This document shows, in pieces, positions 17,565-41,624 of a stretch of 64,000 nucleotides of DNA (its first letter is position 1; each line of letters opens with the position of its first letter). The translations under genes and the position numbers were made by a program. The notes beneath the pieces are model-generated. The model was not told the DNA's origin. It made no database searches and saw nothing but the letters and a program-made list of their open reading frames with translations. Location of the stretch: NCBI GenBank assembly GCA_965277405.1, contig OZ255726.1, positions 1,056,001 to 1,120,000 on the forward strand. The letters are read 5' to 3'. Origin of the DNA: Gammaproteobacteria bacterium. Lineage in GTDB: Bacteria; Pseudomonadota; Gammaproteobacteria; G965277405.

Positions 17565-18799
17565 TAGTACAAAAATATGGAGGCACATCGCTCGGGTCGA
17601 TTGAGCGTATTCAAGCAGTCGCAGCGAACATTGCCCACTGGCGCGATCAAGGACACTCAATCGTTGCGGTTGTATCGGCAATGTCTGGTGAAACTAAGCG
17701 TTTGCTCGCACTCGCATCAGCACTCACTGCCAACCCAAGTCGCCGTGAACTTGACGTGGCTGTTTCGACAGGTGAACAGGTTGCTGCAGCATTACTCTGT
17801 ATGGCTTTGCACACACGCCATTGCCCAGCGCGCTCATTTGCTGGTTGGCAAATCCCAATTTATACAGATAATGTGTTTAACAAAGCGCGGATTCATTCGA
17901 TTGAAACAAACAATATTACCGCAGCCTTGGATGAAAAATTTGTCGCGGTAATTACTGGCTTTCAAGGTGTCACTGCCAATCATGAAATCACCACGCTGGG
18001 GCGCGGTGGCTCAGATACTTCTGCCGTAGCAATAGCAGCTGCGCTCAAAGCAGATGAATGCCATATTTATACTGATGTTGACGGTGTCTATACAACCGAT
18101 CCGCGAATTTATAACGCTGCGGTAAAATTAGACACATTATCATTTGAAGAAATGCTCGAACTTGCCAGCATGGGTTCAAAGGTTTTGCAAATTCGCGCAG
18201 TAGAATTTGCGAGCAAGTATAATATTCCCTTGCGGGTGCTATCGTCGTTTACACTAGGAATTGGAACACTTATCTCATCAGCAGGCTCAGACACTATGGA
18301 AAAACCACTCATTTCCGGCATTACTTGCCAACGCAACGAAGCCAAACTCACGCTATTTGGCGTTCCTGATGTTCCTGGTGTGGCTGCGCAAATACTTGGG
18401 TCAGTGGCGCAGTTGCATATTGATGTCGATATGATTATTCAAAACACTGCTGAAGACGGCACGACCAGCTTCACCTTTACGGTTGCCCGTGCTGATGCAG
18501 ATCAAGCCGAAGCAGCGCTTGGCATATTGAAAACGCAATTGAACGCACGCAATGTAGAATGTGATAGAAAAATTGCCAAAGTGTCCGTGGTCGGTATTGG
18601 CATGAAGTCGCATCCTGGAGTCGCGGCAACTGCATTCGCTTCTCTTGCAAAAGAAGGCATCAACATTATTTTAATTTCCACATCTGAAATTAAAATTACT
18701 GCAGCAATAGATGAACGATATTTAGAACTTGCCGTACATACTTTACACGATGCATTTGAACTTGAGAAACTTGCACAAAATGACACCTTGGCTGGCTGA
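17555..18799 (+). CDS. lysC: Aspartate kinase
   Basis: QKYGGTS, TTLGRGGSDTSA, DVDGVYTTDPR and two ACT domains. alaS-lysC synteny. Confidence 0.95.
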   Translation: MSLIVQKYGGTSLGSIERIQAVAANIAHWRDQGHSIVAVVSAMSGETKRLLALASALTANPSRRELDVAVSTGEQVAAALLCMALHTRHCPARSFAGWQIPIYTDNVFNKARIHSIETNNITAALDEKFVAVITGFQGVTANHEITTLGRGGSDTSAVAIAAALKADECHIYTDVDGVYTTDPRIYNAAVKLDTLSFEEMLELASMGSKVLQIRAVEFASKYNIPLRVLSSFTLGIGTLISSAGSDTMEKPLISGITCQRNEAKLTLFGVPDVPGVAAQILGSVAQLHIDVDMIIQNTAEDGTTSFTFTVARADADQAEAALGILKTQLNARNVECDRKIAKVSVVGIGMKSHPGVAATAFASLAKEGINIILISTSEIKITAAIDERYLELAVHTLHDAFELEKLAQNDTLAG

Positions 18800-21380
18800 T
18801 GCCACGCACAGCCATGTTGTCATTACCGCCACTGAACGCCAAACTCGCTATCTTCGCAATCACTGGCATGCCTTTGTTGCCGCCCAAGGCGGCAGTGTTT
18901 CAGCACCCACAATCACCAGCTATACCACTTTTTGTCAAAGCGTTTGGCAGCAGGCGATAGCTGCTGGTGAGCAGCTCCCAGCGGTGCTACCTCGTCACGT
19001 TGAGCGTAGCCTTTGGTTGCAAACGTTCAACCAACGTTGGCTGGCAAACACAACAGAGATTGTTGAGATTCGCGGCAAGGAAATCAGCAGAATGTTGCTC
19101 GATACTATTGTTATTGCCAATCGGATGTTTCATGTATGGCAATTGCGCCATCACCACTATTCTACCGAATACGAGGTGTTTTATAACTGGCAACGAGCCT
19201 TCCAAAATGCAGCAACGTCGCTTGATGTGATTGACGCTGCAGCCATGCAAAGCAAACTTGCAAAACTTTGCCAATATTGCCCAGATGTTGACCAAGTTAT
19301 TTGGTACGGTTTTAACGAATTGACCACAGTGCAACAACAGCTTAAGCAGCGTTGGGATGGCGTAACCCACCAATCATGCCCATTTTGGCCAGCCCATACC
19401 CCACTAGCAAGCATTGCGTTGCAGCCTTGTGAAAACAACAGCGTGGAGCTAGAAAACGCAGCGCACTGGGCACAGCGTATGGTGCAGCAATACCCGTCTG
19501 CTAGTGTTGCGGTGATTTGCGATAGCCTCACCCAGCAATGGGATGCTTTGCATTATCAGTTTAGCAAGTGCTTTGATGCTGAATGCAATGCGTATGAACA
19601 ATGGAGTGCAGCCAAGCATGTGTTTGCGTTTTCTGCTGGAAAGCCACTAGCTCAACAGCCGCCAATCAGTATTGCGATAAGTTTGTTGCAACTCAATACT
19701 TCCAGCCGTTGCAGCGATATTACGCCACTATGGACGAGTCCGTACCTGCAACATTACTCCAGTTGGCAACGCCAGCGCCATCACGCAGTTAAGGAACTCA
19801 ACGCGCATGCGTGGGAAAATGCAGCGCAATGGTTGCGCAACAACAACAATAGTGATCCGTTGCTAGCAGCATTTTCTCAAGGAATATCGCAGACTAGCTT
19901 GGCAACGGCGCAACAAAACGCTGATGGGTGGATGCACTATATTAGCAAGACCCTAGCAATATTTGGATGGATGGATGGCGTGGTGGCAACAAGCCATGAA
20001 TACCAACAACTCGAACAATGGCACACAATGCTGGCGCAGCTGCGCGCGCTGAATGTGCTTGGTGATATTTCATGGGATGATTTTTTCCATCAATTTCTCG
20101 ATACCTGCAACACAACGATGTATCAACCAGAACGCCACGATGCGCAAATTTCTATTCTAGGGATGCGGGAGGCGCTCGGGTTGCAGTTTGATCACATGCT
20201 GATATTGACGATGCAAGACCATACATTCCCGCCACAGCCGGTCAGCAACCCATTTATTCCTGCCCATGAATTGCAGCGTGCTGTGGTAACCAATGGCAGT
20301 GTTGCTTCCTGTGTCCAAACAGCTGAGCAAATTCTTATTTCTCTGCGCAGCCAATGCCAACATATTGTTGCTAGCTATGTGACGAAAATTGATGAAATTC
20401 CGAGTAAACCAAGTCGCTTAATTGCTGAATACAACACAATAGCTGCAATCAAAGCTGCTGCGTATACACCAACAGAACACCCCCAACTATACACGAGCAT
20501 TGCTGATGATGTGCCGCCGCCGCAATCCAAACAACTTACGGGTGGAATTACCACAATTGAACTACAGGCCGCGTGCCATTTCAAAGGTTTTGCGCGTGGA
20601 AGATTGCGTTTGCAGCCACTGCGCCAACCGCAGGCAAGTATTGACGCCATGCATTTTGGGTCTTGGCTGCATGAGCTGATGCGGCAGATATGGCAGCAGT
20701 TGCAAACGAGTGCTGCATTAAAAATATGGAAAATTGACAAATTACAAGGGTTGGTTGCCAGCCATGCGCACGCCATTGTCGATAATAATACCATGGCACA
20801 GGTGCTGCTGACTCCCCCATTGCAACACGCTTTGATCAATTTATTGACTACAGCAGCCATGCAGGCGCTTACTATTGATCGACAACGCGTTGATTTTTCT
20901 GTTTTGCATAGTGAACACGTACAAGAAATAACGATTGCAGGTTTTACGTTTACCGTACGTATTGACCGTATCGATACCAATCAACAGCTGGATGACGGGC
21001 TGTACATCATTGATTACAAAACTGGCAACGCCAATATAGCAGAGTTGCTTGGACCGCGCATAGCCAAGCCGCAGCTGGCTGTATATTCATTCGTTGTTGC
21101 GAACCCCATTGCCTTGCTGTATTTTCGCGTCAATGCGGAAAGTGATCCGCGGTTTTCTAGCAAATATATCGGCTATGCCGCAGCAGAGGCGGCGCTACCA
21201 CTTAAGTCGCGTGGATTTGAAGTCAAAACATTCGACAAACATATAGCAGTGTCCACGATGCAACACGATATAATTTCTACAATTGAACACTTTCGTGCGG
21301 GCATGACAACTCGTAATCCGCGCACTGTACAACTGTGCACAACTTGTGACTATAGACTGGTGTGCCGGCTGCCGCAATGA
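18780..21380 (+). CDS. AddB/RexB-like DNA repair protein with C-terminal PD-(D/E)XK nuclease
   Basis: RIDRID...IIDYKTG, QL.VY, and an Fe-S staple Cys pattern (AAC.F ... C..C.Y...C). The N-terminus looks like an inactive helicase. Confidence 0.8.
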   Translation: MTPWLADATHSHVVITATERQTRYLRNHWHAFVAAQGGSVSAPTITSYTTFCQSVWQQAIAAGEQLPAVLPRHVERSLWLQTFNQRWLANTTEIVEIRGKEISRMLLDTIVIANRMFHVWQLRHHHYSTEYEVFYNWQRAFQNAATSLDVIDAAAMQSKLAKLCQYCPDVDQVIWYGFNELTTVQQQLKQRWDGVTHQSCPFWPAHTPLASIALQPCENNSVELENAAHWAQRMVQQYPSASVAVICDSLTQQWDALHYQFSKCFDAECNAYEQWSAAKHVFAFSAGKPLAQQPPISIAISLLQLNTSSRCSDITPLWTSPYLQHYSSWQRQRHHAVKELNAHAWENAAQWLRNNNNSDPLLAAFSQGISQTSLATAQQNADGWMHYISKTLAIFGWMDGVVATSHEYQQLEQWHTMLAQLRALNVLGDISWDDFFHQFLDTCNTTMYQPERHDAQISILGMREALGLQFDHMLILTMQDHTFPPQPVSNPFIPAHELQRAVVTNGSVASCVQTAEQILISLRSQCQHIVASYVTKIDEIPSKPSRLIAEYNTIAAIKAAAYTPTEHPQLYTSIADDVPPPQSKQLTGGITTIELQAACHFKGFARGRLRLQPLRQPQASIDAMHFGSWLHELMRQIWQQLQTSAALKIWKIDKLQGLVASHAHAIVDNNTMAQVLLTPPLQHALINLLTTAAMQALTIDRQRVDFSVLHSEHVQEITIAGFTFTVRIDRIDTNQQLDDGLYIIDYKTGNANIAELLGPRIAKPQLAVYSFVVANPIALLYFRVNAESDPRFSSKYIGYAAAEAALPLKSRGFEVKTFDKHIAVSTMQHDIISTIEHFRAGMTTRNPRTVQLCTTCDYRLVCRLPQ

Positions 21381-21405
21381 TTCGTGATAGTTGACGTTAC
21401 TTTAG

Positions 21406-22339
21406 GGAAGCTCTGATTAAGTCGCTATTGTTTTATCTGTAAATGCTCGATACTTTCACTGCTGCGAAATTGCGTTGCTAACAGTAATAGCATCTGTGAG
21501 GGCGTGGGGGTCGTGGGTGCGGATAACGCGTGCGCCGTGCTGGACGGCATATAGCTCTGCCGCAAGTGTTGCGGCTTGGCGTTGATGTATCGGTCGGTTG
21601 GTGAGTGCGGCGAGGAGTGATTTTCGGGAAACACCAATCATAACTCCAGCTATTTCTGGATGGAGGGTCGCCAGCTTTGTTATCTGTTGCAGTAGCTTGA
21701 TGTTGTGATTTGGGCGTTTACCAAAACCGATGCCAGGATCAATCGTTATCCGTTGTGCTTCGATGCCCACGGCAATGCAGCGGATTATTGTCTGTTGCAA
21801 AAATGCGCAGACCTCGTTGACAACGTCGGTATATTGTGGCTCGTTTTGCATGGTTGGCGGGCTGCCTTGCATGTGCATCAAGCAAAGACCTGCTTTGTTG
21901 TTATGTCTGGCTATAATCTGTAGTGCGCTGTGTTTGGCAAGCGCACGGACATCATTAATGGCAATAACACCGGCATCAAGCGCGAGCTGGATGAGTTGTG
22001 GATTACTGGTATCTACTGACACGGGAATTGATTCTGCCAGCAATGCTTCGACAACTGGCATGACTCTGTCTATTTCTGCTGCACTGGCAACAGGCGAGGC
22101 GTTGGGTCGGGTGGATTCGCCGCCAACATCAATTATATCTGCACCGTGTAACGGTTGCACAGCATACATTGCACAGGCGTGATCGACGGCTTGGTTGAGC
22201 GAATTATATTTGCCGCCATCAGAAAATGAATCTGGTGTAACGTTGCAAATAGCTAGAATAGTTGGTGATGTTTTGAAGCGAATATCGCCACAATGCCATG
22301 TGTTCATGTGCGCGTGCTGGTGTGTTAGTCAGAGCTTCC
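21406..22339. mobile_element. Putative transposase-less cassette: IS5-type TIRs enclosing folP
   Basis: Left TIR GGAAGCTCTGATTAA at 21406-21420, right TIR TTAGTCAGAGCTTCC at 22325-22339, TTAG direct repeats at 21402-21405 and 22340-22343. Confidence 0.65.
21456..22307 (-). CDS. folP: Dihydropteroate synthase
   Basis: NVTPDSFSDGG, DVGGESTRP, SVDT, INDV, DPGIGFGK, GVSRKS, IRTHD. Confidence 0.95.
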   Translation of the reverse strand: MNTWHCGDIRFKTSPTILAICNVTPDSFSDGGKYNSLNQAVDHACAMYAVQPLHGADIIDVGGESTRPNASPVASAAEIDRVMPVVEALLAESIPVSVDTSNPQLIQLALDAGVIAINDVRALAKHSALQIIARHNNKAGLCLMHMQGSPPTMQNEPQYTDVVNEVCAFLQQTIIRCIAVGIEAQRITIDPGIGFGKRPNHNIKLLQQITKLATLHPEIAGVMIGVSRKSLLAALTNRPIHQRQAATLAAELYAVQHGARVIRTHDPHALTDAITVSNAISQQ

Positions 22340-22343
22340 TTAG

Positions 22344-22628
22344 TAACCTCTGATTAAGTCGCTGATGGAGCGAGTTTGCCTGCAATTGCTGATGATTGCA
22401 AGGCGCATCCCGCAGGCGCATGCCGTAGCATATACGCCAAGGGATGCAACACAGCAAGCGCAGCAATTGCAGCAAACCGTTATATATTCAACAGAAGGAC
22501 GGGAAAAAACGCTGCGCTAACGTCGTTGCAGCACTTGATAATACTACCAGTATTATCTGCGCACTGCGTCTAGTTATCATCAGCGTTTTTTCTCCGTCTC
22601 GCCCATCATGGACTTAATCAGAGCTTCC
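22344..22628 (-). mobile_element. MITE, full copy 2 (reverse orientation)
   Basis: Reverse complement of copy 1, with TTAG on both sides (22340-22343, 22629-22632). The right TTAG contains the aroB stop codon. The left boundary is uncertain by 1 bp. Confidence 0.92.
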
Positions 22629-23705
22629 TTAGGCGGATGCGTGGGTATGTTGTGCTAAAAATTGTTGCAAGCTAGCTGGTTCATCAATGGTTACAACTTG
22701 GGCATCACCAATTTGTTTGAGGAGAATCAACCGAATGCTGCCAGATCGGCTTTTCTTATCGCGATACATTGCATGCAACATTGTCGGCGCATCAATGCCA
22801 ATAGGCAGCACTGTAGGAATATCAAACAGCTCGAGGGTGGCAATGACGCGGGCAACATCATGCGCTCCAATATATCCAAGCATTTGTGAATACTTTGCCG
22901 CGAGCACCATGCCAATGCCAATAGCATGGCCATGGAGTAATTTGTATTCGCTCCACAGTTCAATTGCATGCCCAAATGTGTGACCAAAATTTAGCAGGGC
23001 GCGCACGCCTGTTTCTGTTTCATCTTTAGCAACAATGTCGGCTTTCATGCTACAGCACGTGGCAATCATCTGCGCCAATATATCTGGTTGCTTAGCAGTA
23101 ATTGCGGCGCAGTTATCGGTCAGCCATTGCAAAAAATCGCTGCTGCCGAGTAAGGCATATTTTACAACTTCTGCCATTCCTGAAATCCACTGATTGTCAG
23201 GAAGCGTTGCGAGGGTGTTGGTGTTAATGGTAACAAGTTTTGGTTGGTTAAACACCCCGAACATATTCTTGCCGAAAGCACTGTTTACCGCTGTTTTACC
23301 GCCGACAGCAGAGTCAACCTGTGCGAGTAACGACGTAGGCATTTGGATATAATCGATGCCACGTTGATATACTGCGGCACAAAAGCCTGCAATATCGCCG
23401 ACGACTCCACCACCTAGCGCAATGACAATCGCGCTGCGATCAACCGTGTGCTGCAACATGAAATCACCAATATTTTCGAGGTATTGGAATGACTTTGTGG
23501 TCTCGCCAGATGGCAGCGTGTATTGCAGCGCGTGAGGGCATCTAGCGATGATGTCTTGTGCGTATAAAGGAGCAACGTTAGTATCGCTAACAAGCACGAC
23601 TTGTCGGTCTTGGGTGAGTTGTGCCAGCGCAGGGGCATCCCAAGCATGCTCGCCTATGTGGATTGGATAGCAGCGCGTGCCTAAATCAACCGTTACTGTG
23701 CGCAT
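22629..23705 (-). CDS. aroB: 3-dehydroquinate synthase
   Basis: ALGGGVVGD, PTSLLAQVDSAVGGKT, LNFGHTFGHAIE, HGHAI, DKK. Confidence 0.96.
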   Translation of the reverse strand: MRTVTVDLGTRCYPIHIGEHAWDAPALAQLTQDRQVVLVSDTNVAPLYAQDIIARCPHALQYTLPSGETTKSFQYLENIGDFMLQHTVDRSAIVIALGGGVVGDIAGFCAAVYQRGIDYIQMPTSLLAQVDSAVGGKTAVNSAFGKNMFGVFNQPKLVTINTNTLATLPDNQWISGMAEVVKYALLGSSDFLQWLTDNCAAITAKQPDILAQMIATCCSMKADIVAKDETETGVRALLNFGHTFGHAIELWSEYKLLHGHAIGIGMVLAAKYSQMLGYIGAHDVARVIATLELFDIPTVLPIGIDAPTMLHAMYRDKKSRSGSIRLILLKQIGDAQVVTIDEPASLQQFLAQHTHASA

Positions 23706-24226
23706 GCAAGGTGGAGTTGCTGGATGATACGAGATGCTGCATGCAGAGGCGTTACGTTCGTTTGCACGAGTTGCCGCGCGAGTGAGCGATACAGCGGGTC
23801 ACGCTCGGCATACATTTGTTGATATGTTTGCCGCGGATTACTGTTTTGCAGCAGTGGGCGGTTTTGGCAATGTTGAATCCGTGCGAACAATACCTGGCAA
23901 TAATCCCAAACATACACCACACGCGGTTGGTTTTGCAGCAGCAATTGGTTGGCGTGAAGTAACGGGGCACCCCCGCCTGTTGCAATAACACAATGCTCAA
24001 TTGTGAGGAGTTCTTGTAAGTACATGTGTTCATATTTTCGAAAACATTGCTCACCTGCTTGGGAAAAAATCGAAGAAACATCGATGCCAAGTTGCTGTTC
24101 AATATAGGCGTCGCAATCATAAAAATCAACGTCAAGCTGTTCGGCAAGTAGTTTGCCAATTGTGGTTTTCCCTGCCCCCATCATCCCGATGAGAACAATC
24201 GGGATGACGCAGGTATCTGCTGTCAT
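23693..24226 (-). CDS. aroK: Shikimate kinase
   Basis: GMMGAGKTT, GE..FR, ATGGG, RPLL; directly upstream of aroB. Confidence 0.93.
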   Translation of the reverse strand: MTADTCVIPIVLIGMMGAGKTTIGKLLAEQLDVDFYDCDAYIEQQLGIDVSSIFSQAGEQCFRKYEHMYLQELLTIEHCVIATGGGAPLLHANQLLLQNQPRVVYVWDYCQVLFARIQHCQNRPLLQNSNPRQTYQQMYAERDPLYRSLARQLVQTNVTPLHAASRIIQQLHLACAQ

Positions 24227-25173
24227 GAACTAGTTGTCTTGGTGCGTATTTCGCGCAGTCGCTGTGTTAAATATTCGCCCGCAGTCATGTTAGAAAATTG
24301 CTTGGGCCTTGTAGCTGTGATGAAGGCATCAAGGCTGCGCAAGTCCATCGACGCAATTGGGTGGAAAAAAAATGGTAATGAATATCTTGAAGTATGCCAG
24401 AGACGACGCGGTGGGTTGATGACGCGGTGAGTCGTAGAAGGCAAATACCCATTGGTCAAGCGTTGCAGCATATCGCCAACATTGACGATGAGATATCCAC
24501 TTGGTGTGTCGATGTCATACCAAGCACCTGTAGTATCACATACTTGCAGCCCAGTTGCTGATGCTCCTACGAGCAACGTGATGAGATTTATATCTTCATG
24601 CGCAGCAGCGCGAATAGCATCTTGTGGCTCGCTGGTAATCGGTGGGTAGTGGATGGCGCGCAGCAGGCTTAGCCCTGCGGTAATAAATTGAGAAAAATAC
24701 TGCTGCGGCAGTTTTAAAAACAGCGCTGTTGCCTCCATGAGTGCAATAGCCGTCTGTTCCAAAGCTACAAATGTTCGTTGTAAAGTTGAGGTAAATGCAG
24801 GAAGTTCTGCAACGTTTATATTGGATAAAGTGCTGGTGTCGGTTGCACGACCATGATGCCAAAATTCTTTAATATCTGCTACCGTGCCGCCTTTTGCTTG
24901 TTCTGACCATAGGCGGTTATAGCCGCGTTGACCGGCAATATCTGGAATCGCATACTGTTCTTTGATATCATCTGCCAATGCAAAAAACTGTTGTATTTGT
25001 GCATGTACCTCGTGCTGTAGCTGCTCGCTTAGGCTGCCGCCTTTAATTGCAGCAAAGCCGATATTGACAAATGAGTCACCGATTTCCTGCACAAATTCAG
25101 CGCGTTTTGTAGCATTGCCGCAGATAAAGTCATCAAGATTGACTGCAGCAATAGGTAATGTAGATTCAGACAT
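24223..25173 (-). CDS. 2-oxoglutarate/Fe(II) oxygenase, isopenicillin N synthase family
   Basis: HEDINLIT, NVGDMLQRLTNG, STTHRV, RYS motif. Confidence 0.88.
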   Translation of the reverse strand: MSESTLPIAAVNLDDFICGNATKRAEFVQEIGDSFVNIGFAAIKGGSLSEQLQHEVHAQIQQFFALADDIKEQYAIPDIAGQRGYNRLWSEQAKGGTVADIKEFWHHGRATDTSTLSNINVAELPAFTSTLQRTFVALEQTAIALMEATALFLKLPQQYFSQFITAGLSLLRAIHYPPITSEPQDAIRAAAHEDINLITLLVGASATGLQVCDTTGAWYDIDTPSGYLIVNVGDMLQRLTNGYLPSTTHRVINPPRRLWHTSRYSLPFFFHPIASMDLRSLDAFITATRPKQFSNMTAGEYLTQRLREIRTKTTSS

Positions 25174-25456
25174 GCGGTGCAGTATAAAACACAATATGAA
25201 TTAGATAAGCTTAAAACCGAATAAATAAAGCTATTGCGCTTGATTGCAACCTTGCTGTGGTAAATGTGCTATGCGTGTCTTGTATGTTTTCGCATTACGG
25301 TAATGCGCGGGCTGCTTTAACAAAATATTTGCAGCAACTTGGCGTTGCGAATATCGTCAAAAAATAAAAAACGCTGCGTTAGCAGTTGAAACCCGTGGCA
25401 TGTTAGTCTACGGTTATTTGCTTATTCAGCACATTAACTCAAACGCTGGCGCGTGT

Positions 25457-39944: not shown

Positions 39945-41172
39945 GGAAGCTCTGATTAAGACTCGCATATACTCCAAGAACTCGCATATACTCCAAAAAA
40001 GTAATAGCAATAATTTTCAATGGTCAATATTTGATCATTTCGCTGATCTTCGTGTTGCTGTTTTACTGTTTTTTTACTGTTTTTTACTGTTTTTCTTGTT
40101 TTTTACTGTTTTTCTTGAATTTTGGGCGGTTCTATCCTGTTAGTCGTCCTCGCAGCATGTATAAGTTCGTCAATGCAAGCAAAGAAAATACTTGTACTCG
40201 ATTCTTTTCTAGTCCTTTGTAGCGAGCTTTCTTATAACCAAACTGACATTTGATTACCCGAAAACAGTGCTCAATCCGGGCGCGCACCTTAGAGTTCTGT
40301 CTATTGCGTTTGCGCTGCGAGCCGCTCATTTGCTGCTTTGGTTTACGTTTATCATTCACGCGCCAATCTATCCCAAGGTGACGCGAGCCGCGTTTATAAC
40401 TGTCGCTCGTATATCCTGCATCGGCAAAGATAACCTTATCTGTTTCACGCAGCAATTTTGGGAGTTCATTGATGTCAGCTTCATTCGCGGCTGTCACTGT
40501 CGCGCTATGAATCATATTGCTATTAGCGTCAGTTCCTATATGAATCTTCATGCCAAAATACCACTGATTGCCTTTCCTTGTTTGATGCATTTCAGGATCA
40601 CGGGCTTTCTCTTTATTCTTCGTAGATGATGGTGCATGGATGATCGTGGCATCAACCATCGACCCTTGTGAGATTGTTATATTATTTTCCATACAATACT
40701 CATTCACCACAGCAAGTATCTTGACGCTGAGTTGATGTTTTTCTATGATCCTGCGGAAGTTCAAGATGGTAGTTTCATCAGGGATGGCATCGTCTATCAG
40801 CTCTATATGGGCAAAACGCCGCATGCTTTCCATGTCATATAGTGCTTCTTCTACCCCTGGGTCTGATAAGTTGTACCATTGCTGTAACAATAAACGCGTA
40901 ACATGGTCTGCATATTAATTGGTGGGCGGCCATTCCCTTTCTTGGGATAATGCGGTTCTATTAACGCTAACAACCGTTGCCATGGAGCTAATTTGTCCAT
41001 CGACTGCAAGAATTTTTCACGTTTTGTTGTTACTTTCTTGTGGTCGTATGCAGCACTGGCAAAAGTTGTTTGTTTCATAAGATTATCCGCTTATTCAAAT
41101 ATTCAAATAGATTCACCATTGTATATCTTTCTAGCTGATATTGCTGTTGTTTGGGACTTAATCAGAGCTTCC
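39945..41172 (-). mobile_element. IS5-family (IS5 subgroup) insertion sequence, 1228 bp
   Basis: Perfect TIRs GGAAGCTCTGATTAAG / CTTAATCAGAGCTTCC, flanked by TTAG and TTAA, enclosing a DDE transposase. Confidence 0.93.
40132..41078 (-). pseudogene. IS5-family transposase split by a 1-nt frameshift near 40885-40890
   Basis: N-part (TKREKFL, GRPP, MLRVY) and C-part (LQQWYNLSD, IPDETTILNFR, VDATII, KGNQWYFGMKIH, ADAGY, RARIEH.F..IK.QFG) are in different frames. Confidence 0.85.
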
Positions 41173-41176
41173 TTAA

Positions 41177-41624
41177 GAAACCTCTGATTAACTCGATGGT
41201 GGGCGCGACGCGGTTTGGCGCGATGCAGGGCGCGGCGGCTTGTGCAAAACCACCGTATAAATTTTGCCTGCCGATTTATGCAATATCACGCTGCCAAGTC
41301 GATGAAAATATTCTATGCTTAATTAGGAAAGCTCTGATTAATTCCATGATGGGCGAGACGGAGAAAAAACGCTGATGATAACTAGACGCAGTACGCAGAT
41401 AATACTGGTGGTATTATCAAGTGCTGCAACGACGTTAGCGCAGCGTTTTTTCCCGTCCTTCTGTTGAATATACTTTGGGTTTGATGGTAGCGGTACTTGC
41501 TGTGTTGCATCCCTTGGCGTATATGCTACAGCATGCGCTTAGCGGTTTTGCGCCTTGCAATCATCAGCAATTGCCATCAAACTCGCTCCATCAGCGACTT
41601 AATCAGAGGTTCCTCAGAGATTCA
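41177..41624 (+). mobile_element. Short variant element (~157 bp) with the same TIR family, its right TIR interrupted by MITE copy 3
   Basis: Left TIR GAAACCTCTGATTAA at 41177. Removing 41323-41613 restores a right TIR-like TTAATCAGAGATTCA. Confidence 0.6.
41327..41613 (+). mobile_element. MITE, full copy 3
   Basis: TIRs GAAAGCTCTGATTAA / TTAATCAGAGGTTCC, flanked by TTAG and TCAG. Confidence 0.92.

What the first reader, a model, noticed from the sequence alone, without database searches (positions are those of the whole stretch)
21402..22632. folP packaged as a transposase-less cassette between IS5-type ends, in a TTAG-[folP]-TTAG-[MITE]-TTAG stack
Seen: a 934-bp unit (21406-22339) starts with the perfect TIR GGAAGCTCTGATTAA and ends with TTAGTCAGAGCTTCC (14/15 match), both facing inward. 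It holds only folP, with 17 bp between TIR and ATG and 35 bp between stop and TIR. TTAG occurs at 21402, 22340 and 22629, i.e. on each side of the unit and of the adjacent MITE. Removing both units leaves one TTAG carrying the aroB stop, 21 bp from the convergent AddB-like stop, which is a plausible empty site. Known: IS5-subgroup elements duplicate YTAR tetramers; folP usually lies between ftsH and glmM in Gammaproteobacteria; IS-ended passenger cassettes (IS231 MICs, transporter IS) exist. Inference: the ends captured a core folate gene (the sulfonamide target), apparently without a promoter, and placed it co-directionally behind aroKB, which supply its chorismate-derived substrate. That would be an IS5-end gene-shuffling system acting on housekeeping genes.
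Basis: partly seen in the sequence, partly recalled or inferred. Interest (0 to 1): 0.8.

Follow-up and report, generated by a model that had tools for sequence, protein, structure and literature searches.

The report
folP between two IS5-type ends
The only copy of the folate gene folP sits between two inward-facing ends of a resident IS5-type mobile element, but in this repeat-riddled genome such pairings arise about as often as chance predicts, so it is a possible, unproven mobile cassette.

Summary
The anatomy is real. It reads TTAG, a perfect 21-nt element end, folP, a 14/15 end, TTAG, a 286-bp MITE, then a TTAG that carries the aroB stop. folP is a native-looking, single-copy dihydropteroate synthase, not a sul gene. 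It is displaced from the ftsH-folP-glmM order seen in 8 of 10 relatives' loci checked. Intact IS5-family transposases exist in 12 of 38 IS copies.

The mobile-cassette reading gained no positive support:
- The genome holds about 648 such ends, 159 of them solo.
- Inward solo pairs 151-5000 bp apart number 6. Outward pairs number 7 and tandem pairs 13.
- Of 238 gene-holding L..R pairs, 31 have identical flanks, against 28.5 +/- 5 expected.
- The right end is a poor end: 18 bits, the 5th percentile of intact-element ends.
- No second copy, empty site or close relative was found.

My odds: about 55% two truncated solo ends at rearrangement junctions, about 30% a true mobile insertion cassette. 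Earlier notes of this scan described the same MITE family in other windows of this genome.

The parts
18729..21380 (+). AddB-like probable DNA repair protein (883 aa), convergent with folP. Its stop lies 21 bp before the first TTAG.
   Evidence: TIGR03623 418.6 bits, cut-off 299.6. PF12705 PD-(D/E)XK nuclease.
21402..21405 (.). TTAG flank of the left end (candidate target-site duplication)
   Evidence: Sequence. TTAG and CTAA are the commonest flanks of the family.
21406..21426 (+). Left element end, 21 nt, perfect, with its body side facing folP. Homology to the MITE and IS stops after 21 nt.
   Evidence: 0 mismatches. 36.2 bits, in the top 10% of intact-element ends. Homology extension of 21 nt.
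21456..22307 (-). folP, dihydropteroate synthase, 283 aa, the only copy in the genome
   Evidence: TIGR01496 274.6 bits, cut-off 162.6. The Sul1-4 models score far below their cut-offs. 1 match in the whole genome.
22325..22339 (-). Right element end, 15 nt, matching 14 of 15, with its body side facing folP. It has C at position 12 and no subterminal homology.
   Evidence: 18.0 bits, the 5th percentile of intact-element ends and the 40th percentile of solo ends. Position 12 is T in 418 and C in 4 of 427 intact ends.
22340..22343 (.). Middle TTAG. Its G is also the in-register first base of the adjacent MITE end.
22343..22628 (+). Full-length 286-bp MITE of the same family. The left end scores 28.5 bits (GT instead of GG) and the right end 35.5 bits.
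   Evidence: As RNA on the folP strand it folds at -148.7 kcal/mol, z -8.0.
22629..22632 (.). TTAG flank, which carries the aroB stop codon (TAA on the minus strand)
22629..23705 (-). aroB, 3-dehydroquinate synthase, 358 aa, co-directional and upstream of folP
   Evidence: TIGR01357 360.4 bits, cut-off 305.
23693..24226 (-). Shikimate kinase (aroK-like), 177 aa, overlapping the aroB start
   Evidence: NF010552 E 1.4e-42, 145.6 bits, below the curated cut-off of 186.
39945..41172 (-). 1228-bp IS copy of the same family inside the window. Its transposase frame is split into 75 aa and 252 aa. A truncated and a full MITE are stacked behind it, up to 41613.
   Evidence: The intact homologue L100 scores 330.3 bits on NF033581 IS5 family and hits PF01609 plus PF05598.

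Best explanation
folP is this organism's own essential, single-copy dihydropteroate synthase gene. It was separated from its old neighbours ftsH and glmM during the rearrangement and erosion that came with a massive expansion of an IS5-family element and its MITEs. The two short ends beside folP are solo terminal repeats. They are what is left of resident MITE or IS copies at the TTAG hot spot on the aroB stop codon, after illegitimate recombination or deletion joined folP-bearing DNA to breakpoints inside those copies. When incoming DNA is joined to a break inside a resident element, the part that survives is the part attached to the recipient flank. Its terminus therefore points away from the gene and it looks 'inward-facing'. 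Native intergenic spacers here are short, which makes the unit look tightly packaged. On this reading the unit was not moved by transposase as a cassette.

Shown: the anatomy, the displacement of folP, the abundance of solo ends, and the lack of any excess of inward or flank-matched pairs. Inferred: the truncation history and its mechanism. How folP is expressed is open. It must depend on read-through from aroK-aroB across a strongly folding MITE, or on an unmapped promoter.
For: - About 5.3% of the genome (115,555 bases in 363 intervals) derives from the IS or MITE.
- There are 648 ends at 9 bits or more, and 159 of them are solo, with homology of 60 nt or less.
- Adjacent solo-solo pairs 151-5000 bp apart: 6 inward (340, 934, 1410, 2527, 4407, 4613 bp), 7 outward, and 5 plus 8 tandem. 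Orientation looks random.
- Of 238 L..R pairs 400-6000 bp apart holding at least one non-IS gene, 31 have identical 4-bp flanks. Shuffling flanks gives 28.5 +/- 5.0, and 34% of shuffles reach 31.
- The same anatomy recurs without matching flanks. gcvT lies at C1:42500-43909. dctM-dctP lies at C1:2133557-2136083, where a 44-nt MITE end runs up to the called start codon and a roughly 20-nt end follows the stop. An SDR gene is followed 10 bp after its stop by a 62-nt MITE remnant that keeps its distal terminus.
- Among 46 short solo ends, 9 have a gene 1-40 bp from the body side and 11 have one 1-40 bp from the terminus side.
- The right end looks like a decayed solo: 18.0 bits, and C at a position that is T in 418 of 427 intact ends.
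- ftsH (C1:1153561) and glmM (C1:1914582) are also apart from each other. A single clean excision of folP would not produce that.
- Only 79 of 202 intact elements keep matching flanks, which shows heavy later rearrangement.
- folP has one copy. It looks native: GC 0.50 against 0.452 +/- 0.041 for the genome, codon-usage distance at the 63rd percentile, and best identity to relatives of 50%, like aroB at 47-48%.
Against: - This reading needs two separate truncations, each of which kept only the gene-distal terminus.
- The left end is perfect at 36.2 bits, a score reached by only 2.5% of solo ends against 10% of intact-element ends.
- The literal flanks are TTAG and TTAG, the canonical target. 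Two independent solo ends share a flank with probability about 0.05, and generic ends about 0.12.
- A single 934-bp insertion, or a 1223-bp one, is a more economical account of a lone gene sitting between two unrelated genes.
- Intact transposase is available in trans.
- My gene set for the distance counts is crude: greedy ORFs of at least 150 aa.
Confidence: 0.55

Rival explanations
1. This is a true mobile insertion cassette (MIC). Two element ends came to flank folP at its old locus. The resident IS5-family transposase, acting in trans, then cut out and pasted the end-folP-end unit into the TTAG at the aroB stop codon, and the MITE stacked next to it. In a variant, the unit that moved was the 1223-bp stretch 21406-22628, which uses the two perfect outer ends and carries folP plus the MITE.
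For: - The ends face inward and there is no transposase inside.
- Both pairings have literal TTAG/TTAG flanks: 934 bp and 1223 bp.
- The outer ends of the 1223-bp variant score 36.2 and 35.5 bits, while the two inner ends are the degraded ones at 18.0 and 28.5 bits.
- folP is displaced from ftsH-folP-glmM.
- 12 of 38 IS copies encode an intact IS5-family transposase.
- At 934-1223 bp the unit is no longer than the IS itself, which is 1228 bp.
- MICs moved in trans by a cognate transposase are a described class (passages read in PMC3913671).
Against: - There is no second copy.
- There is no empty site and no excision joint. The joints are other MITE copies that share the 21-nt end.
- Inward pairs and matched flanks show no genome-wide excess.
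- The inner right end is a poor end.
- The middle TTAG shares its G with the MITE.
- ftsH and glmM are not adjacent, as a simple excision would leave them.
- To form such a cassette, the same chance pairing of two solo ends is needed first.
- Only 2 of 17 mini-elements of 46-65 bp have matching flanks, so there is no proof that about 20-nt ends suffice for mobility.
Confidence: 0.3
2. One resident MITE or IS sat at the TTAG between the AddB-like gene and aroB. Its interior was replaced in place by a copied folP segment, for example by template switching during repair of a break in the hairpin-forming element. The original folP copy was lost later. Both ends and both TTAGs then come from one ordinary insertion, without the unit ever transposing.
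For: - It explains the inward ends and the matching TTAG with a single element.
- The MITEs fold very strongly: -148.7 kcal/mol, z -8.0 as RNA.
- Truncated ends with unrelated DNA on the body side are common.
Against: - There is no trace of a second folP copy.
- No Ku and no SbcD were found in this 98% complete genome, so end-joining capture and hairpin cleavage by SbcCD lack their usual enzymes.
- The mechanism is purely inferred.
- Flank matching needs no special explanation here.
Confidence: 0.1

Closest known systems
Mobile insertion cassettes (MIC231 of Bacillus cereus; the mic elements carrying qnrD or qnrS2)
   Same: Two inverted repeats matching an IS bracket a passenger gene, with no transposase inside and a target-site duplication. 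A cognate transposase is encoded elsewhere. The definition and examples come from passages read in PMC3913671. Chen et al. 1999 and De Palmenaer et al. 2004 were seen only as citations there.
   Different: - Those elements derive from the IS4 family or from unknown elements and carry accessory or resistance genes. MIC231 was shown to be mobilised in trans.
- Here the ends are of the IS5 family and the passenger is the single-copy core gene folP.
- One end is degraded.
- There is no evidence of mobility of any kind.
Solo inverted repeats and partial IS copies
   Same: These are isolated terminal repeats of a resident IS. The ISsaga paper lists 'solo IRs' among IS-related objects and calls partial copies scars of ancestral recombination events (passages read in PMC3129680). 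This genome has 159 solo ends.
   Different: Two such ends happen to bracket one essential gene, face inward, and carry the same canonical 4-bp flank.
IS5-group insertion sequences and their MITEs (nearest plasmid-borne relatives are annotated as ISPst7-like and IS1384-like)
   Same: - A DDE transposase scoring 330.3 bits on NF033581, with PF01609 plus PF05598.
- An element of about 1.2 kb with terminal repeats of about 16-20 nt beginning GGAAG.
- 4-bp TTAG/CTAA duplications.
- That IS5 duplicates YTAR is recalled knowledge.
   Different: The transposase is only 51-53% identical to the best plasmid-borne relatives. The family is unnamed here and has about 200 MITE copies.
Composite transposons
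   Same: Outer ends of two element copies could mobilise what lies between them. The 1223-bp variant (left end ... folP ... MITE right end) has this logic.
   Different: There is no complete element on the left side, only a 21-nt end. No duplicated or transposed copy is known.

Membership tests
Mobile insertion cassette (MIC) | Bracketed by two inverted repeats that match the ends of an IS | tested here: met
   The left end matches 21 of 21 and scores 36.2 bits. The right end matches 14 of 15 and scores 18.0 bits. Both face inward.
Mobile insertion cassette (MIC) | No transposase gene inside; the passenger gene is unrelated to transposition | tested here: met
   The only gene inside is folP.
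Mobile insertion cassette (MIC) | Target-site duplication of the type made by the cognate IS | tested here: inconclusive
   The flanks read TTAG and TTAG literally. However, the G of the right copy is also the MITE's first base. Matching flanks around gene-holding L..R pairs also occur at the chance rate, 31 against 28.5 +/- 5.0.
Mobile insertion cassette (MIC) | Cognate transposase available in trans | tested here: met
   12 of 38 IS copies have an intact 315-319 aa IS5-family transposase.
Mobile insertion cassette (MIC) | Evidence of mobility: more than one copy or site, an empty site, or experimental mobilisation | tested here: not met
   folP has one copy. Contigs of 3 runs from one study show the same arrangement and no excision joint. 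There is no match on plasmids. No close relatives exist for an empty-site comparison. Experimental mobilisation cannot be tested with these tools.
Mobile insertion cassette (MIC) | Both ends competent for the transposase | tested here: inconclusive
   The right end scores at the 5th percentile of intact-element ends. It has C at position 12, where 418 of 427 intact ends have T. The function of the ends cannot be tested here.
Solo IRs / partial IS copies | A terminal repeat of a resident IS without the rest of the element | tested here: met
   Homology to the IS and MITE stops after 21 nt on the left and 15 nt on the right. 159 of 648 ends in the genome are of this kind.
IS5 family (IS5 group) for the parent element | DDE transposase of the IS5 type, terminal inverted repeats, and a 4-bp YTAR duplication | tested here: met
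   NF033581 scores 330.3 bits against a cut-off of 140, with PF01609 plus PF05598. TTAG/TTAG and CTAA/CTAA make up 48 of the 61 matching MITE flank pairs.
Acquired sulfonamide-resistant DHPS (Sul1-Sul4) | Score above the curated cut-off of a Sul model | tested here: not met
   Sul2 scores 169 against 575, Sul3 151 against 475, Sul4 132 against 600, and Sul1 121 against 600. This is an ordinary chromosomal folP.

The most novel reading that the evidence does not exclude
In a genome swamped by an IS5-type element, chance pairs of solo ends turn ordinary core genes into accidental mobile cassettes. On this reading the resident transposase really did cut and paste the organism's only folP, as a 934-bp or 1223-bp unit, from the ftsH-glmM locus to a site behind aroK-aroB. 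That would make IS ends a direct driver of core-gene order change, not only a substrate for recombination.
Probability: 0.3. Interest if true: 0.55.

Novelty: new member of a known kind. Interest (0 to 1): 0.3.

Why it matters
If the unit did transpose, it would be a rare case of a mobile insertion cassette carrying a single-copy essential housekeeping gene. It would show that IS ends can reshuffle core gene order directly during an IS expansion. If it did not, the locus still has value as a worked example. It shows how solo ends in an IS-saturated genome can mimic a cassette, and that target-site 'duplications' of a preferred 4-bp target carry little weight there. About 12% of gene-holding end pairs match by chance. 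The gene is a normal folP, not a resistance determinant.

Tried and rejected
- **Empty site in relatives.** All 30 relatives searched are related only at class level, with FolP identity of at most 50%. Among the 80 metagenome loci kept, the best identity is 48%. The AddB-like gene of 17 relatives' loci has no aroB, folP or aspartate kinase within +/-1.5 kb, so synteny tells nothing at this depth.
- **Excision joints.** The joints 21426->22345 and 21426->22369 have only 21 letters on the short side and continue into MITE body. They are other MITE copies, not excision. The runs hold the same strain, with 0 differences over 19500-22374.
- **Horizontal origin of folP.** Rejected. Composition, codon usage and divergence all look native.
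- **The cassette on plasmids.** No match.
- **A TIR remnant 40 bp after the ftsH stop** (3 mismatches). It scores only 2.0 bits, so I treat it as chance.
- **A sharp common breakpoint in solo ends.** Breakpoints spread over 15-36 nt, with many near 20-22. Part of that cluster is due to 47-bp mini-elements, so no firm conclusion.
- **Mini-elements as proof that about 20-nt ends are mobile.** Only 2 of 17 have matching flanks.
- **A promoter for folP.** Three consensus hits against 2.3 +/- 1.6 in shuffles, one of them inside the MITE on the folP strand. This is no evidence.
- **Capture by end joining, or SbcCD cleavage of hairpins.** Ku and SbcD were not found.
- **RNA evidence.** Not obtained.
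Full report
**Observation.**
- TTAG lies at 21402-21405.
- A perfect element end starts at 21406. Its identity to one MITE end type runs for 21 nt, to 21426.
- folP is on the minus strand at 21456-22307.
- A 14/15 copy of the end lies in the opposite orientation at 22325-22339.
- TTAG lies at 22340-22343.
- A full MITE runs to 22628.
- TTAG at 22629-22632 carries the stop codon of aroB (22629-23705, minus strand).
- The spacers are 35 bp (stop to end) and 17 bp (end to ATG). No start codon lies further upstream in the open frame.
- The AddB-like gene (18729-21380, plus strand) stops 21 bp before the first TTAG.

The ends are far beyond chance. The 15-mer gives 18 matches in the window against 0.11 expected. 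A weight matrix gives 641 sites in the genome against 4 in a shuffled genome.

One detail weakens the tidy picture. In register, the MITE's own end begins at 22343: 28.5 bits there and -69 bits at 22344 (one search gives the same register). The G of the middle TTAG is therefore shared with the MITE, and one base is missing at that junction.

**What the genes are.** folP scores 274.6 bits on the DHPS equivalog, cut-off 162.6, over its full length. It falls far below the cut-offs of the Sul1-4 resistance models, so it is an ordinary chromosomal folP. It is the only DHPS match in the 2.17-Mb single-contig genome.

Upstream on the same strand lie aroB and a shikimate kinase. They are preceded by a 2OG-Fe(II) oxygenase gene that overlaps the kinase start.

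folP looks native. Its GC is 0.50 against a gene mean of 0.452 +/- 0.041, close to its neighbours at 0.48. Its codon-usage distance sits at the 63rd percentile of 426 genes of similar length. Its best identity to relatives is 50%, much like aroB at 47-48%.

**The element family.** The genome holds 584 copies of the 15-mer with up to 2 mismatches. These include about 143 MITEs of 240-360 bp and 37-38 IS-sized units of about 1.2 kb.
- 115,555 bases (5.3%) derive from the IS or MITE.
- The transposase belongs to the IS5 family: NF033581 330.3 bits, with PF01609 and PF05598. It is 51-53% identical to the best plasmid-borne relatives.
- The copy in the window (39945-41172) is frame-split. Twelve of 38 copies elsewhere keep a 315-319 aa frame, so transposase is available in trans.
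- Matching flanks are mostly TTAG or CTAA: 48 of the 61 matching MITE flank pairs.
- Only 79 of 202 intact elements still have matching flanks. That points to much later rearrangement.

Earlier notes of this scan on other windows of the same genome describe the same IS5-type MITE family and its 47-bp miniature form. My own counts agree with them.

**Displacement of folP.** In 8 of 10 loci checked from class-level relatives, folP lies between ftsH and glmM. One locus has rnr-folP-glmM. In the tenth, glnD follows folP and the ORF before it matched no NCBIfam family. In this genome ftsH is at C1:1153561, folP at C1:1077456 and glmM at C1:1914582.

So folP has left its old neighbours, but ftsH and glmM have also parted from each other. 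In the five relatives where folP and aroB lie on one contig, they are at least 27 kb apart.

**Is the pairing special?** This is the core of the verdict.
- Of 648 ends at 9 bits or more, 159 are solo, with homology of 60 nt or less.
- Among neighbouring solo-solo pairs 151-5000 bp apart there are 6 inward, 7 outward and 13 tandem. Inward pairs are not enriched.
- The other inward pairs hold ordinary genes too. gcvT sits in a 1410-bp unit. dctM-dctP sits in a 2527-bp unit, where a 44-nt MITE end runs up to the called start codon and a roughly 20-nt end follows the stop.
- An SDR gene is followed 10 bp after its stop by a 62-nt MITE remnant that keeps its distal terminus.
- Among 46 short solo ends, 9 have a gene 1-40 bp from the body side and 11 have one 1-40 bp from the terminus side (the gene set is crude).
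- The matching TTAG carries little weight. Of 238 L..R pairs 400-6000 bp apart that hold a non-IS gene, 31 have identical flanks. Shuffling flanks gives 28.5 +/- 5.0, and 34% of shuffles reach 31.
- For two solo ends alone, the chance of a match is about 0.05. With three to six inward pairs, that is not compelling.

**Quality of the ends.** The left end scores 36.2 bits. That level is reached by 10% of intact-element ends and 2.5% of solo ends. The right end scores 18.0 bits, which is the 5th percentile of intact-element ends and the 40th percentile of solo ends. It has C at position 12, where 418 of 427 intact ends have T.

So one end looks live and the other looks decayed. A variant pairing uses the left end with the MITE's right end (35.5 bits). 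It gives a 1223-bp unit with two excellent outer ends, two degraded inner ends and TTAG on both sides. This is the best form of the cassette hypothesis.

**Tests that could not decide.**
- No relative closer than class level exists among the genomes searched or in the metagenome contigs, where the best identity is 48%.
- Three runs of one study hold the stretch. Their contigs match 19500-22374 with no difference, which confirms the assembly. The apparent joints come from other MITE copies.
- The unit is not on plasmids.

**How it most likely works.** I favour, at about 55%, the reading that the two ends are solo repeats left where folP-bearing DNA was joined to broken or eroded resident copies. 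These copies sat at the TTAG hot spot on the aroB stop codon. Such a junction keeps the part of the element attached to the recipient flank. That automatically gives an inward-facing end close to the gene.

A true mobile insertion cassette, as defined in the passages read in PMC3913671, remains a serious rival at about 30%. Replacement of the interior of a single resident element gets about 10%. Its usual enzymes, Ku and SbcD, were not found. Solo IRs and partial copies as recombination scars are a recognised category (passages read in PMC3129680).

**Expression of folP is unexplained.**
- The 17-bp leader has no Shine-Dalgarno-like motif that I could see.
- The MITE between aroB and folP folds at -148.7 kcal/mol, z -8.0, on the folP strand. 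The fold includes a long hairpin followed by a U run.
- The promoter scan is at background level.

**Verdict.** The structure is real and is a neat candidate. However, the claim of an IS5-end gene-shuffling system is not supported by the genome-wide counts, and mobility of this unit is not shown. Whichever reading holds, the object belongs to a known kind, either a MIC or solo IRs of an unnamed IS5-family element.

Noticed in passing
G000:C1:2133557-2136083 (outside the window): A TRAP transporter pair, dctM-dctP, is bracketed by inward ends. A 44-nt MITE end runs straight into the called GTG start of dctM, and the MITE's own GGAG sits at ribosome-binding-site distance from it. A roughly 20-nt end follows the dctP stop. 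The flanks do not match (CCAA and TTCT).
   Followed up: partly
G000:C1:1914278-1914469 (outside the window): Just upstream of glmM lies a 153-bp unit with inward element ends, whose interior is not MITE-like. A further degraded end lies 25 bp on. So glmM, the old neighbour of folP, also sits next to element scars.
   Followed up: partly
window 22343-22628, minus strand: The MITE between aroB and folP would fold very stably as RNA (-148.7 kcal/mol, z -8.0). The fold contains a long hairpin followed by a U run, so read-through into folP may be impeded.
   Followed up: partly
genome-wide, e.g. G000:C1:356532-356578: 17 mini-elements of 46-65 bp, mostly 47 bp, consist of little more than the two ends around a short palindrome. 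Only 2 of 17 have matching 4-bp flanks, so many may be deletion products formed in place.
   Followed up: partly
G000:C1:246127, 786437, 984206, 1418796, 2156487: A second repeat family shares the first 11 nt or so of the end and then continues differently. It is probably a distinct but related IS.
   Followed up: no
window 39945-41613: A stack of elements: a 1228-bp IS with a frame-split transposase, then 4 bp, then a truncated MITE of about 150 bp, then a full 287-bp MITE. It illustrates repeated insertion into the duplicated target beside an existing element.
   Followed up: partly
whole genome G000: No SbcD and no Ku were found in this 98% complete genome. The lack of the SbcCD hairpin nuclease would fit tolerance of hundreds of hairpin-forming MITEs.
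   Followed up: no
window 24223-25194, minus strand: A 2OG-Fe(II) oxygenase gene (PF03171 and PF14226) overlaps the start of the shikimate kinase gene by 4 bp. It appears to head the aroK-aroB(-folP) transcription unit.
   Followed up: no
G000:C1:535126-540957 and 1682637-1688614: Two near-identical segments of about 5.9 kb each begin with the same weak end-like motif (15.2 bits). They are possibly duplicated operons, perhaps rRNA, and were not examined.
   Followed up: no
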